A stretch of 63,576 nt of DNA, the filler included, from Basidiobolus meristosporus CBS 931.73 (taxonomy: Eukaryota; Fungi; Basidiobolomycota): NCBI GenBank assembly GCA_002104905.1. It is 4 parts of 4 records of this genome, joined end to end, with 100 filler letters (N's around TTAATTAATTAA, not from the genome) between each part and the next. Parts side by side here need not be neighbours in the genome. Positions count along the whole stretch, not along the records: positions 12,296 to 40,233 come from MCFE01000892.1; positions 40,334 to 53,933 come from MCFE01001200.1; positions 54,034 to 63,576 come from MCFE01001323.1; 1 more part is not named here. The stretch is one strand, 5' to 3'. Made by a program: the position numbers and the translations under genes. Below are positions 32,809 through 63,576 of this stretch, piece by piece. The first letter of the stretch is position 1. Every line of letters starts with the position of its first letter. The notes under the pieces are model-generated. The model was not told the DNA's origin and did no database searches. It worked only from the letters and a program-made list of their open reading frames with translations.

Positions 32809-34062
32809 GGGGGGGGGAGACAGTCACCAACAGGTGAAATCTTTATTTCAGTTAAAACAAAGAAGCCAGTGCTACTGTTGTAGCTCCAATACAAGAGTGT
32901 GTAGCTGAGGGGAATTTGTACGTAGGTTAATCAGGAGAGATGATAGTGCTTCAGTGCTCAAGACACTGTTCAGTGGGAAGGGTGGTAGCAAGAGGGGTAA
33001 TAATGATTTGTGAACAACATTAATGAGGGGAATATGATAAGGATTGATATTCATCATAAAGTGAGTGTGCTGCTGCAGATATTGCTGCCAAAGGTCTGTC
33101 AAGTACTTCAGGTTGGCCAGCTTGGGTTTTTCTGACTGTAGAATATAGTTAGCAAACTTCTTGACTTCAGGATCTTCAAGTATACTTCTCCAGCAGGAGC
33201 CAGGTGTAGTGTGGTGTGTTCTCTTCCAGGTCTTGATCAGTGGGTTGTTGCAGTGGTGAAGTCTGAGATATAATCTGGTTCTAAGGTAGAGAAGTCTGAT
33301 CTTGTAGGGCATAAACCCAAAAGCACCAGGAATAGCATGTCTGTAGGGGCATTCATGTAGATGAGGCACCAGGGATGTAATGCACCAGACTGCAAACTTG
33401 TCAAGTTGAGTGCAGTCTCTAGAAGTAAGAGAGAAAGGTAGTAAGCCAAATTCCAGGACAGGGAACACAAACTGCTGAGTAGAAGGAGGCAGCTGGGAGC
33501 TGAAGTTGTAGGAGGAGTTACAGCCAGTTGCTTGTGGAGTGCTTGTCTTGCCAGGATAATTCTCTTCTTCAGGTGTGCTCCAGAGTCTAGTCCAGTAGGA
33601 AGGAAAGGAAAGCCAAGATATGTAGCAGAGACTTGAGCAGGTAGAGTGCAGTTATCTAAGTTGATAGGACAACCCAGAGGTACTGTCTTTGCAATGGAAA
33701 GCAGGAGATTATTCTTCTGCAGATACTGGTGGATGGTCTGGGAGTCTTGTTGCACATTGGAGGAGGACATTCTGATGTCATCAGCAAAGAGAGTAACCAG
33801 GCAGTCAGCTGAGAGTCTTGGGAAATCATTGAGGAAGATGACAAACAGTATAGGACCAAGCACAGAGCCTTGAACCACACCATTAGGAACTGAGAATACA
33901 GCTGATTGCTCACTTGGGTGCAGAATTCTTGCTTGTGGATCCAGAAACAGAGACCTGACAAGGAGGGTGAGGGAGGTCATAGAGAAGCATTGCAACTTGG
34001 ACCAAAGCAGATTTCTGTCAACTGAATCAAAGGCCTTAGTAATATCAAACAAAACAGAGGGA
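32809..34062 (-). mobile_element. Telomeric LINE family A, copy A1: 5'-truncated, frameshifted, most diverged
   Basis: 3' signature G9-AGACAGTCACCAACAGGTGAAATCTTTATTT; RT FDITKAFDSV, GVVQGSVLGP, FADD; 1-nt deletion near 33476 splits the ORF. Confidence 0.92.
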
Positions 34063-34192
34063 TTAGGGGGAGGGAAAGTCACCAAGGTAGGTGAAATCTT
34101 TATTTGATTTCAGACAAGTCTAACTACAAATAAAGAAGCCAACTGGGAATAGAAGATTCCCAAAGTAAACACTAAGTTGAATATGAATAAAT

Positions 34193-34921
34193 CTAAGCTA
34201 AAGTTAAAGCAGTATCCCAGAGTACACTGGAGTTCAGGTTCATGGGGGAGTGAAGTAGATAGGCTTGAGAGATATAATAATCTTTTAAGAAGTGGGTAAC
34301 AGCGGGTGAAGGGGAGTTTTTGATAAGTGAAGTGAATCTTGAAAGCAGAGATTCCTCTAATGAGAAGGTCTTGTAAACTGGAGAATCAGGAAACTCTTTA
34401 AAGGCATGGTCAGTTGGTTCCCAGTAAAACTGGTCAGAGACATTTTGAGAGAATTGTTTAGCAATACTTTTGTCAAGTACTACCTCCAGAGTATGATGGT
34501 TGATAAATCTCATGTTGACAATCTTGGATAAGTTGTAACCTTGTTGCTTGAGATACATCCTATGCTCAGATATAGGAATAAACTCCACATTGGCAAAGTA
34601 GCAGACAGCCCAGTCAGTAGCAGGAGGTAAATCAGAAGTGGCAGGAAACTTTCTTTTGGCCTTGGGAGGAGCAGCAGGATGTCTTGAGGAAGCAGGAACA
34701 GGCTTTTTGACAGCCTCAGAGTAGGAAGAGTGAGCAGGAGCAGATGAATCTTGGGGAGTCTTGTTGACAGGAGGAGTTGGCACAGGGACAATAGATTCTT
34801 GCAGATCAGAAAAGGCAGAAAACAGCTTTTGAACTTGTTTCTTGAGTAAAGCATTTTCAGCTTCAACAAGTGCAAGCCTTTCATCCAGGAAAGAAATCTG
34901 AAGGGAATGGAGTGAAGCCAT
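34193..34921 (-). CDS. Family B ORF1-like protein (242 aa from ATG, MASLHSLQ...)
   Basis: N-terminal heptads ERLALVEAENALLKKQVQKL; central domain aligns by eye with family A ORF1. Confidence 0.8.
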   Translation of the reverse strand: MASLHSLQISFLDERLALVEAENALLKKQVQKLFSAFSDLQESIVPVPTPPVNKTPQDSSAPAHSSYSEAVKKPVPASSRHPAAPPKAKRKFPATSDLPPATDWAVCYFANVEFIPISEHRMYLKQQGYNLSKIVNMRFINHHTLEVVLDKSIAKQFSQNVSDQFYWEPTDHAFKEFPDSPVYKTFSLEESLLSRFTSLIKNSPSPAVTHFLKDYYISQAYLLHSPMNLNSSVLWDTALTLA

Positions 34922-34958
34922 AAGAAATAAGAAGAGGGTAGGATGGGGTGGGTGGGTG

Positions 34959-35489
34959 GGAAAATTAGCAGGGAGAAGAGAAGGAAGGAGCAAAAAATTC
35001 CAGAAGTCAGAATTTATAGATGGATAGACAAGGGTGGATGGATGGAATATTCCTGGGTTAGGAAAATTAGCAGGGAGAAGAGAAGGAAGGAGCAAAAAAA
35101 TTCCAGAAGTCAGAATTTATAGATGGATAGACAAGGGTGGATGGATGGAATATTCCTGGGTTAGGAAAATTAGCAGGGAGAAGAGAAGGAAGGAGCAAAA
35201 AATTCCAGAAGTCAGAATTTATAGATGGATAGACAAGGGTGGATGGATGGAATATTCCTGGGTTAGGAAAATTAGCAGGGAGAAGAGAAGGAAGGAGCAA
35301 AAAATTCCAGAAGTCAGAATTTATAGATGGATAGACAAGGGTGGATGGATGGAATATTCCTGGGTTAGGAAAATTAGCAGGGAGAAGAGAAGGAAGGAGC
35401 AAAAAAATTCCAGAAGTCAGAATTTATAGATGGATAGACAAGGGTGGATGGATGGAATATTCCTGGGTTAGGAAAATTAGCAGGGAGAA
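34959..35489. repeat. 102-103-bp tandem repeat, 5 units plus a partial
   Basis: GGAAAATTAGCAGGG unit starts at 34959, 35061, 35164, 35266, 35368, 35471. Confidence 0.95.
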
Positions 35490-35526
35490 GGGGGGGAGAC
35501 AGTCACCAACAGGTGAAATCTTTATT

Positions 35527-61220: not shown

Positions 61221-61260
61221 AAGAAATAAGAAGAAGAGGGTAAGATAGGGTGGGTGGGTG

Positions 61261-61923
61261 GGAAAATTAGCAGGGAGAAGAGAAGGAAGGAGCAAAAATT
61301 CCAGAAGTCAGAATTTATAGATGGATGGACAAGGGTAGATGGATGGATTATTCCTGGGTTAGGAAAATTAGCAGGGAGAAGAGAAGGAAGGAGCAAAAAT
61401 TCCAGAAGTCAGAATTTATAGATGGATGGACAAGGGTAGATGGATGGATTATTCCTGGGTTAGGAAAATTAGCAGGGAGAAGAGAAGGAAGGAGCAAAAA
61501 TTCCAGAAGTCAGAATTTATAGATGGATGGACAAGGGTAGATGGATGGATTATTCCTGGGTTAGGAAAATTAGCAGGGAGAAGAGAAGGAAGGAGCAAAA
61601 ATTCCAGAAGTCAGAATTTATAGATGGATGGACAAGGGTAGATGGATGGATTATTCCTGGGTTAGGAAAATTAGCAGGGAGAAGAGAAGGAAGGAGCAAA
61701 AATTCCAGAAGTCAGAATTTATAGATGGATGGACAAGGGTAGATGGATGGATTATTCCTGGGTTAGGAAAATTAGCAGGGAGAAGAGAAGGAAGGAGCAA
61801 AAATTCCAGAAGTCAGAATTTATAGATGGATGGATTATTCCTGGGTTAGGAAAATTAGCAGGGAGAAGAGAAGGAAGGAGCAAAAATTCCAGAAGTCAGA
61901 ATTTATAGATGGATGGACAAGGG
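61261..61923. repeat. 101-bp tandem repeat: 5 full units, one 83-bp unit, one partial
   Basis: Unit starts 61261, 61362, 61463, 61564, 61665, 61766, 61849. Confidence 0.95.
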
Positions 61924-61932
61924 TTAGGGTTA

Positions 61933-63354
61933 GGGGGGAGACAGTCACCAACAGGTGAAATCTTTATTTCAGTTGAAACAAAGAAGCCAGCACTACTGTT
62001 GTAGCTTTGATACAAGAGTGTGTAGCTGAGGGGAATTTGTAGGTAAGTTAATAAGAAGTGATGATAGTTCTTCAGTGCTCAAGACACTGTTCAGTGGGAA
62101 GGGGGGTAGCAAGAGAGGTAAGAATGACTTGTGAACAACATTAATGAGGGGAATGTGATAAGGATTGATATTCATCATAAAGGGAGTGTGCTGCTGCAGA
62201 TATTGCTGCCAAAGGTCTGTCAAGTACTTCAGGTAGGCCAGCTTGGGTTTTTCTGACTGCAGAATATAGTGAGCAAACTTCTTGACTTCAGGATCTCCAA
62301 GTATAGTTCTCCAGCAGGAGCCAGGTGTTGTGTGGTGTGTTCTCTTCCAGGCCTTAATCAGTGGGTTGTTGCAGTTGTGAAGTCTGAGGTATAATCTGGT
62401 TCTAAGGTAGAGAAGTCTGATCTTATAGGGCATAAACCCAAAAGCACCAAGAATAGCATGTCTGTAGGGGCATTCAGGCAAATGAGGCACCAAGGAGGTA
62501 ATGCACCATACTGCAAACTTGTCAAGCTTAGTGCAGTCTCTAGAAGTAAGAGAGAGAAGTGGTAAGCCAAATTCCAGGACAGGGAAGACAAACTGCTTGA
62601 GTAGAAGGAGGCAGCTGGGAGCTGAAGTTGTAGGAGGAGTAACAGCCAGTAGCTTGTGGAGTGCCTGTCTTGCCAGGATAATTCTCTTCTTCAGGTGTGC
62701 TCCAGAGTCTAGTCCAGTAGGAAGGAAAGGAAAGCCAAGATATGTAGCAGAAACCTGAGCAGGTAGAGTGGAGTTCTCCAAGTTGATGGGAGAGCCCAAA
62801 GGTACTGTCTTTGCAATGGAAAGCTGGAGATTATTCTTCTGCAGATACTGGTGGATGGTCTGGGAGTCTTGTTGCACATTGGAGGAGGATATTCTGATGT
62901 CATCAGCAAAGAGAGTAACCAGGCAGTCAGCTGAGAGTCTTGGGAAATCATTCAGGAAGATGGCAAACAGTATAGGACCAAGCACAGAGCCTTGAACCAC
63001 TCCATTAGGAACTGAGAACACAGCTGATTGCTCACTTGGGTGCAGAATTCTTGCTTGTGGATCCAGAAACAGAGACCTGACAAGGAGGGTGAGAGAGGTA
63101 CTGGAGAAGCACTGCAACTTGGACCAAAGCAGATTTCTGTCAACTGAATCAAAGGCCTTAGTAATATCAAACAGAACTGAGGGATACTTGCACTGGAGAG
63201 AGTGATCTTGGCTAAGTATGACTGCATATTCCAAGGAGAGGCCAGGAACAAAGCCAAACTGTGCAGGATGAAACTTGAGAGAGTCAGAGTAGAGCTCCTG
63301 AGCAAGCAGAAGCTCAAACACCTTTCTGCAGGTGGGCAGCAGAGATATTGGCCT
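61933..63354 (-). mobile_element. Family A copy A4, 5'-truncated in the RT and capped by telomere
   Basis: Matches A3 up to GATATTGGCCT, then switches to AGGGTT repeats. Confidence 0.95.
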
Positions 63355-63576
63355 AGGGTTAGGGTTAGGGTTTAGGGTTAGGGTTAGGGTTAGGGTTAGG
63401 GTTAGGGTTAGGGTTAGGGTTAGGGTTAGGGTTAGGGTTAGGGTTAGGGTTAGGGTTAGGGTTAGGGTTAGGGTTAGGGTTAGGGTTAGGGTTAGGGTTA
63501 GGGTTAGGGTTAGGGTTAGGGTTAGGGTTAGGGTTAGGGTTAGGGTTAGGGTTAGGGTTAGGGTTAGGTTAGGGTT
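63354..63576 (+). repeat. Terminal telomeric (TTAGGG)n
   Basis: About 37 units with single GGGTTTA and GGTTA variants. Confidence 0.98.

What the first reader, a model, noticed from the sequence alone, without database searches (positions are those of the whole stretch)
32809..63576. Multi-family telomeric retroelement arrays at two chromosome ends, alongside TTAGGG telomeres
Seen: two independent contigs end as A1-B1-A2-C-(TTAGGG)n and D-B2-A3-B3-A4-(TTAGGG)n. Every element is on the CCCTAA strand with its 5' end toward the chromosome end, most are 5'-truncated, and I found no target-site duplications. Established: this polarity and an autonomous plus ORF1-only pairing are the Drosophila HeT-A/TART layout; TRAS/SART and Magnaporthe MoTeR1/2 are telomere-targeted elements that coexist with telomerase. 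Inference: an APE-type LINE with dependent partners extends or heals chromosome ends here as a second route beside telomerase. I do not recognise this system as described, but could not search.
Basis: partly seen in the sequence, partly recalled or inferred. Interest (0 to 1): 0.92.

Follow-up and report, generated by a model that had tools for sequence, protein, structure and literature searches.

The report
Telomere-capping LINE trio in Basidiobolus fungus
Two chromosome ends of a Basidiobolus fungus carry head-to-tail stacks of a LINE retrotransposon, a partner encoding only its RNA-binding-type protein, and a short SINE-like element, all sharing one tail that likely pairs with the TTAGGG end to prime copying, which would be an independent fungal version of the fruit-fly HeT-A/TART layout beside ordinary telomere repeats.

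Summary
Two contigs end in same-polarity arrays capped by 33-37 TTAGGG repeats. A is an APE+RT LINE, 95-98% identical to pieces in B. meristosporus gene models. B is an ORF1-only partner under purifying selection, with a 50% homolog in B. ranarum. C is a 520-bp non-coding element with Pol III-type A and B boxes. D and a missed relic E are decayed sister LINE families. A, B and C share a tail without poly(A): AATAAA, a 5-bp hairpin, a C-run, then TAA; 9 of 11 inner junctions read TTA+G-run, with at most about 2 repeats. Contigs from sequencing runs of one sample show many more junctions of this kind. ORF2 follows ORF1's TGA in frame with no early ATG. The endonuclease has a family-wide Glu-to-Asp change and a minimal hairpin. 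Likely mechanism: the RNA tail anneals to a short G-rich end and primes reverse transcription (0.5); the rival is a TRAS/MoTeR-like nick (0.33). Telomeric retroelement arrays are known. New here are the long-branch fungal APE family and the LINE + ORF1-only + SINE-like trio, for which I found no paper. TERT, benefit to the host and genome-wide exclusivity are untested.

The parts
32265..32530 (-).
   Evidence: tblastn 40% over 62 aa, E 2e-9, with stops; degenerate shared tail
32548..32808 (.). Two pieces of a repeat also found beside the Copia gag ORF of contig 3 (likely an LTR); its own TTTA forms the junction to A1
   Evidence: self-BLAST to 41543-41891 and 1672-2020; homolog continues GGATTTAC
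32809..34062 (-). A1: 5'-truncated LINE A, the most diverged copy (93.5-94.5% to the others), with a 1-nt deletion near 33476
34066..35489 (-). B1: ORF1-only partner; ORF 34193-34921 (242 aa); 5.2 copies of a 102-bp 5' monomer (34959-35489)
35490..39415 (-). A2: LINE A with open ORF2 (35527-38319) and 5'-truncated ORF1 with a 1-nt deletion near 38418
39416..39512 (-). About two telomere repeats, a 58-nt C tail (39427-39484), one repeat, an 18-nt tail (39491-39508), then TTTA: abortive additions
39513..40034 (-). C: SINE-like element; A box 40025-40015 and B box 39982-39972 (43 nt apart), CCCTAACCC in the head, LINE-type 3' tail
   Evidence: flat contig cover and C-C tandems
40035..40233 (+). 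Terminal (TTAGGG)n, 33 copies, running to the contig end
55054..55290 (-). D: decayed 3' end of a P0001-like sister LINE family; ends at its own TTAG
   Evidence: tblastn 68% over 22 aa, E 5e-6; other contigs continue past 55290 with non-B sequence (table 7)
55290..56121 (-). B2: ORF1-only partner truncated near the ORF start
56125..60362 (-). A3: longest A copy; ORF1 58958-60362 (coiled coil plus a domain shared with B), TGA at 58960-58958, ORF2 56189-58957 (922 aa, APE+RT) in the same frame
60366..61924 (-). B3: ORF1-only partner; ORF 60492-61220; 101-bp 5' monomers 61261-61924
61925..61932 (+). Telomere-repeat spacer between B3 and A4
61933..63354 (-). A4: 5'-truncated A, joined to the telomere through its own T
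63355..63576 (+). Terminal (TTAGGG)n, 37 copies, running to the contig end

Best explanation
These arrays are head-to-tail copies of one autonomous APE/RT LINE (A), an ORF1-only partner (B) and a SINE-like element (C) that share one 3' tail, and they are likely built by the LINE's reverse transcriptase copying each RNA onto the chromosome's G-rich 3' end after the tail's C-run plus UAA anneals there. Shown: the shared tail, the polarity, the TTA+G-run junctions, unique truncation points, and older copies lying proximal. Inferred steps: (1) A makes ORF1p, and the EN/RT by readthrough of UGA-CUA or by non-AUG restart; (2) ORF2p recognises the hairpin tail, so B and C are copied in trans, B adding its own ORF1p and C being a Pol III RNA; (3) the RNA end reads C(4-10)UAA, which pairs with TTAGGG like a telomerase template, and primes on a short or freshly healed end without needing a nick; (4) copying usually stops early, and telomerase caps the new end or adds 1-3 repeats before the next element arrives. 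The retained but altered endonuclease would trim ends or act on the second strand.
For: A, B and C share AATAAAGATTTCACC-loop-GGTGAC with an invariant stem and three loop lengths, then a C-run, and no poly(A). 9 of 11 inner junctions have TTA just before the G-run, with at most about 2 repeats. Several junctions use only the truncated neighbour's own T, TTTA or TTAG; B1|A2 has a single G and no repeat; 58- and 18-nt abortive tails are stacked back to back. In contigs of runs X1/X2, 14 of 15 joints shown (22 not shown) and 12 of 12 rows shown in table 5c (168 not shown) run from an A or B truncation point into an A or B tail, mostly through TA/GGG/TAGGG-type letters; the loose-end consensus before the A tail ends TAGGGTTA (24-25 contigs). 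C does the same, 12 of 12 rows shown. The age gradient runs proximal to distal: E and D decayed, A1 about 94%, A2-A4 97.5-98.8%. pN/pS is 0.11-0.42 for A and 0.23-0.38 for B. The endonuclease has Asp where 47 of 47 ungapped distant relatives have Glu, and 5 of 5 family members lack the PT-type motif that 48 of 57 relatives have. Precedent for priming on the overhang: EN-minus PLEs (PMC8557442, passages); Drosophila elements add at ends although TART keeps its EN (PMC5537684, passages).
Against: The endonuclease folds as a complete APE domain (pLDDT 90) and keeps N, Y, D-x-N, D and DH in families only 42-55% identical, so it is probably active at something. Short spacers are also expected after nick-and-insert, because internal tracts of 3 or more repeats break in Magnaporthe (PMC7367193). 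Short-word contigs would break at long spacers (my inference), which biases the read evidence toward short ones. The flanking TTA words could be read as tiny TSDs. No RNA holder was listed, so the RNA 3' end, readthrough and Pol III transcription are untested. All four runs are one sample, possibly the source of the window. Five of the joints have sides under 30 nt, which the tool flags as unreliable.
Confidence: 0.5

Rival explanations
1. Sequence-specific TPRT as in TRAS1 and MoTeR: the APE domain nicks the G-rich strand within the first telomere repeats, the freed 3' end pairs with the same C-run/UAA tail, and long internal tracts are later lost by breakage. The three-tier partnership is unchanged.
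For: Complete APE fold; TRAS1 EN is the top Foldseek row but is tied with L1, R1Bm and APE1. Catalytic D, N, D, D, H are invariant in all 62 rows. MoTeR and FoTeR have the same polarity and short spacers. D|B2 and flank|A1 sit at native TTAG/TTTA words.
Against: Family-wide Glu-to-Asp at the metal-binding position and a minimal hairpin. B1|A2 and flank|D have no TTA. FoTeR 3' ends carry 3-7 repeats, against 0 to about 3 here.
Confidence: 0.33
2. The arrays are mainly spread and lengthened by recombination or break-induced replication between ends, with little current retrotransposition.
For: BIR lengthens MoTeR arrays. Copies are 94-99% identical. One C-C joint has about 5 times the depth of the unique flank.
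Against: Each of the 7 A and B copies in the window has its own truncation point. At least 10 further A points and 6 well-separated B points appear in the rows shown, most at about single-locus depth. ORFs are under purifying selection.
Confidence: 0.1
3. RT template jumping joins several RNAs in one event, so mixed arrays arise at once and not one element at a time.
For: Abortive 18- and 58-nt tails and 4 TTTA junctions without an upstream GGG fit jumps onto RNA ends.
Against: The age gradient along both arrays and the telomere repeats between some elements need separate events. It can only be a contributing process.
Confidence: 0.04
4. Misassembly: dispersed repeats were stacked onto telomere reads.
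For: No listed contig spans a whole array; the assembly is fragmented.
Against: The flank-D-B2 junction is bridged by one contig, and many independent junctions of the same form occur in run contigs. Gene models P0005 and P0006 run over 3 and 2 tandem A ends on other scaffolds.
Confidence: 0.03

Closest known systems
Drosophila HeT-A/TART/TAHRE (Jockey clade)
   Same: Head-to-tail arrays with 5' ends distal, an ORF1(gag)-only partner under selection plus an APE+RT element, and a G-rich strand matching the telomere strand (PMC5537684 and PMC10088271 passages).
   Different: TTAGGG caps remain; there is no oligo(A) at junctions; the ORF1 has no Pfam match to zinc knuckles; a SINE-like third tier is present; B's promoter-like monomers are 5'.
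MoTeR1/2 (Magnaporthe) and FoTeR (Fusarium)
   Same: Fungal, TTAGGG telomeres, same polarity, truncated copies capped by telomere repeats, short internal tracts, a second shorter element in MoTeR arrays.
   Different: Those have a C-terminal REL endonuclease and group with CRE/SLACS/Cnl1; A has an N-terminal APE and a separate ORF1. Here the partner encodes a protein.
TRAS/SART (R1 clade, insects) and Tx1-1_ACar (anole)
   Same: APE-type LINEs at telomeres alongside telomerase.
   Different: They insert inside repeat tracts guided by the EN. SART1 makes ORF2 by overlapping stop-restart, not through an in-frame stop. Poly(A) junctions are recalled for TRAS/SART and absent here. Tx1-1_ACar was seen only as a citation.
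EN-minus Penelope-like elements Athena/Coprina
   Same: Attach to G-rich overhangs using reverse-complement telomere sequence in the RNA, the step proposed here.
   Different: PLE-type RT, no EN, hammerhead ribozymes. A is a LINE-type RT with an APE domain.
Fungal tRNA-derived SINEs (MgSINE, Foxy, AfuSINE2)
   Same: About 500 bp, A and B boxes, a 3' end shared with a LINE (PMC5063351 passages).
   Different: AfuSINE2 copies have TSDs, and that paper does not contain the word 'telomer'. C has no recognisable cloverleaf and sits in telomeric arrays.

Membership tests
APE-type non-LTR retrotransposon (A) | RT domain of LINE type | tested here: met
   RVT_1 E 9e-25; best PDB hit L1 ORF2p, E 2e-12
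APE-type non-LTR retrotransposon (A) | N-terminal APE endonuclease | tested here: met
   Model pLDDT 90; Z about 20 to APE1, TRAS1 and R1Bm EN; Pfam score below cut-off; Glu replaced by Asp
APE-type non-LTR retrotransposon (A) | ORF1, no LTRs, 5' truncation | tested here: met
APE-type non-LTR retrotransposon (A) | Poly(A) or simple-repeat tail and TSD | tested here: inconclusive
   The tail is a C-run plus TAA; only telomere-register words flank the copies
HeT-A/TART (Jockey clade) | RT in the Jockey clade | tested here: inconclusive
   No named TART reference was available; the family is a long branch (support 1.0), weakly (0.78) beside a group that includes a Parasitella element
HeT-A/TART (Jockey clade) | Telomeres made of elements only | tested here: not met
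   33 and 37 terminal TTAGGG repeats
HeT-A/TART (Jockey clade) | ORF1-only partner under selection | tested here: met
   B pN/pS 0.23-0.38; 33% identical to A ORF1; homolog in B. ranarum
MoTeR/FoTeR (CRE-like, REL) | C-terminal REL endonuclease, no APE | tested here: not met
   N-terminal APE fold; none of the 6 family members in the tree was flagged for a C-terminal CCHC motif or shows one in alignment A1
TRAS/SART (R1 clade) | RT in the R1 clade | tested here: inconclusive
   No named TRAS or SART RT in the tree; EN structure scores are tied across clades
TRAS/SART (R1 clade) | EN cuts the telomere repeat specifically | not testable with these tools
   needs biochemistry
Athena/Coprina PLE | No endonuclease, PLE-type RT | tested here: not met
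tRNA-derived SINE (C) | Pol III A and B boxes at tRNA spacing | tested here: met
   A box (1 mismatch) and B box 43 nt apart; the only such pair in the window on both strands; 0 of 20,000 shuffles; consensus patterns recalled
tRNA-derived SINE (C) | Head homologous to a tRNA | tested here: inconclusive
   ARAGORN found 0 genes; no Rfam tRNA match at E up to 10; no host tRNA set to compare
tRNA-derived SINE (C) | Short, non-coding, repeated, with a LINE-shared 3' end | tested here: met
tRNA-derived SINE (C) | Transcribed by Pol III | not testable with these tools
   no RNA data; 0 T4 runs in C (p about 0.02), but A and B are depleted too

The most novel reading that the evidence does not exclude
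Basidiobolus, a fungus reported to have 60 to many hundreds of small chromosomes, has co-opted a LINE whose RNA tail mimics the telomerase template and whose endonuclease no longer drives interstitial insertion. With a HeT-A-like ORF1 partner and a telomere-restricted SINE, it forms a second, host-useful way to lengthen and heal chromosome ends: a living intermediate between telomerase telomeres and Drosophila-type retrotransposon telomeres, evolved independently in fungi.
Probability: 0.22. Interest if true: 0.87.

Novelty: new variant of a known kind. Interest (0 to 1): 0.64.

Why it matters
The fungal telomeric LINEs in the papers I read (MoTeR, FoTeR) are REL-type. This is an APE-type family on a long branch that has held chromosome ends through several successive sub-families and across Basidiobolus species. 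It repeats the HeT-A/TART division of labour while TTAGGG caps persist, and it adds a SINE-like parasite. It gives a culturable system in which to test whether a LINE can prime directly on a telomere overhang, what a retained endonuclease does in such elements (an open question for TART), and how retrotransposon telomeres can arise from telomerase ones.

Tried and rejected
No whole genome is held, so genome-wide mapping and a TERT search were not possible. No RNA holder was listed. The full-length ORF2 model was poor (pLDDT 44.5) and was not used. A sequence search of the EN alone against PDB gave 0 hits; the fold search was needed. Rfam and ARAGORN did not recognise C. The T4-run test for Pol III is weak because A and B are also depleted. 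The G-run at 32456, first taken for a junction, lies in relic E's decayed coding sequence. Metagenome loci L001-L007 are only distant LINEs (23-35% identity). Summed contig depth is not a copy number; only its shape was used (A falls about 9-fold from 3' to 5', C is roughly flat). Clade placement failed for lack of named references. The trees are FastTree only: one search left out P0005, P0006, P0128 and RT pieces under 280 aa; one search used 99 sequences (hits P0133-P0215 with a long RT stretch, without P0134, plus chosen earlier hits), rooted on L005. Searches of earlier findings returned nothing. Literature searches with 0 hits; one search listed 2 off-topic papers. The library lacks most subscription papers and Repbase, so an earlier description cannot be excluded. 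No supplements were read.
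Full report
Observation. The window holds four contigs. The arrays have a strong G skew on the telomere strand. They are almost free of CpG (observed/expected 0-0.03 in A, B and D; 0.15 in C; about 0.7 in genic DNA), which suggests a history of methylation (inference). Genes lie close by: an EBP-like ORF piece ends about 550 bp before D (weak Pfam hit). Contig 3 is unrelated.

Host. ORF2 of A matches B. 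meristosporus gene models at 95-98% over the shared stretches (P0005). The B protein has one homolog among 270 candidates, from B. ranarum (50%). I therefore place the window in Basidiobolus; host genes were not checked by name. Microscopy of Basidiobolus reported 60 to many hundreds of small chromosomes (PMC3281927, passages), which fits a high number of such arrays.

Element A. A3 carries ORF1 (coiled coil, then a domain shared with B; Atlas look-alikes are unnamed Mucoromycota and chytrid proteins at 0.93-0.94, a lead only) and a 922-aa ORF2 with APE and RT domains. Its true 5' end is not in the window. In both copies that span the junction, ORF1 ends in TGA and ORF2 continues in the same frame with CTA; the first Met is at residue 142, past the EN's GDLN motif. 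UGA-CUA is a leaky stop context (recalled), so readthrough is likely; non-AUG restart is the alternative. SART1 and L1 use other routes (PMC5972666, passages). The database proteins of relatives start at scattered positions within the EN, except P0001, which starts with Met at the matching place, so support from relatives is weak. The EN model is confident (pLDDT 90) and matches APE1, TRAS1, R1Bm and L1 ENs about equally; TRAS1's first rank is no evidence of kinship. Five catalytic positions are invariant in 62 rows. The metal-binding Glu is Asp in A3, P0001, P0003 and P0130, against Glu in 47 of 47 ungapped distant relatives. The PT-type motif before the catalytic Asp is missing in 5 of 5 family members and present in 48 of 57 others. 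The family (A3 and relatives at 48-80%) forms one long-branch clade (support 1.0), weakly (0.78) beside a mostly unnamed group with a Parasitella member. It cannot be assigned to a named clade with the references at hand.

Partners and relics. B encodes only a 242-aa ORF1 homolog (33% to A ORF1) with pN/pS 0.23-0.38 among three copies, preceded by 101-102-bp monomers. The B. ranarum homolog ends at the same place. C is 520 bp and non-coding. It has an A box and a B box 43 nt apart near its 5' end, the only such pair in the window and 0 of 20,000 shuffles. It has no cloverleaf, so I call it SINE-like. Run contigs cover it evenly and show C-C and C-A joins. D and E are decayed 3' ends of two sister LINE families. 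Both lie proximal, and A1 is more diverged than A2-A4, so the arrays grew outward and several families have held the same niche.

Tail and junctions. A, B and C end in AATAAA, a TCACC/GGTGA hairpin with variable loop, a short linker and a C-run. The stem never varies, so it shows no covariation. There is no poly(A). In 9 of 11 inner junctions the next letters on the RNA strand are UAA, so the RNA would read CCCUAA, the complement of the telomere repeat. Spacers are 0 to about 2 repeats in the window and up to about 3 in the rows shown from runs. Terminal truncations join the telomere through 1-3 matching letters, as expected of telomerase healing (established for MoTeR). Only telomere-register words flank the copies.

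Genome-wide signal. Contigs of four runs of one sample were laid on 54034-60360 and 39300-40032. One contig bridges flank-D-B2. In one search, 14 of 15 joints shown and 12 of 12 in-between rows shown lead from an A or B truncation into an A or B tail; 22 and 168 rows were not shown. In one search, 12 of 12 rows shown lead into a tail, and 2 joints are internal deletions. Against exclusivity: a 2.7-kb contig carries a 157-bp piece of C at about 90% identity at one end, and its position is unknown. P0005, P0006 and P0134 show A ends on 116-177-kb scaffolds of unknown position.

Mechanism. Priming of LINE reverse transcription by the chromosome's G-strand 3' end on a CCCUAA-like RNA tail explains the polarity, tail, junctions and partners; the two versions of this model together carry about 0.83. 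Whether the 3' end is a natural short end (0.5) or an EN nick in the first repeats (0.33) is open. Short spacers do not decide it, because tracts of 3 or more repeats break in Magnaporthe (PMC7367193, passages), and TART keeps an EN while adding at ends (PMC5537684, passages). Recombination (0.1), template jumping (0.04) and misassembly (0.03) fit less well. Benefit to the host is not shown. In Magnaporthe, MoTeR arrays amplify when TERT is deleted (PMC8381367, passages), so such a role is possible.

Comparison and novelty. A 2023 survey lists telomeric elements from four LINE clades with MoTeR1 as its fungal LINE example (PMC10088271: first of 7 parts and passages). FoTeRs are REL-type too (PMC12857005: passages and section 19). 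EN-minus PLEs attach to overhangs (PMC8557442, passages). Searches pairing Basidiobolus with telomere or telomerase terms, and one for telomere-specific tRNA-derived SINEs, found nothing relevant. Two reviews gave only background (PMC10386755, PMC6899921, passages). The library lacks most subscription papers and Repbase. Verdict: real, and it works like HeT-A/TART with MoTeR-like telomere caps, but it fails a defining feature of each and so belongs to neither. It is a new variant of a known kind; interest 0.64.

Noticed in passing
P0122, P0128: Two proteins named as Bacteroides fragilis in NCBI/UniRef, on 1.6-kb and 0.7-kb contigs, fall in clusters of this fungal LINE family; likely contamination of a bacterial assembly.
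   Followed up: no
P0005 and P0134, residues 1-76: Two B. meristosporus gene models join the same piece of an unrelated LINE RT (47% to a Smittium culicis protein) to A ends. This may be a further family next to A arrays on two ~117-kb scaffolds.
   Followed up: partly
window 40011-40003 (minus strand) and the B monomers: C's head holds CCCTAACCC between the A and B boxes, and each B monomer holds CCTAACCC. They could seed telomerase healing or bind telomere proteins.
   Followed up: no
window 40334-41891: CpG-depleted Copia gag/protease fragment with a likely LTR; related pieces at 1672-2946 lie in inverted arrangement.
   Followed up: partly
window 23257-24168, 43276-44301, 52975-53901: Three arrestin-domain ORFs on two of the four short contigs.
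   Followed up: no
table 5c, joint 56901 to 55290: A 33-nt G/T-rich degenerate spacer between A and B: possibly error-prone telomere addition or a piece of another family.
   Followed up: no
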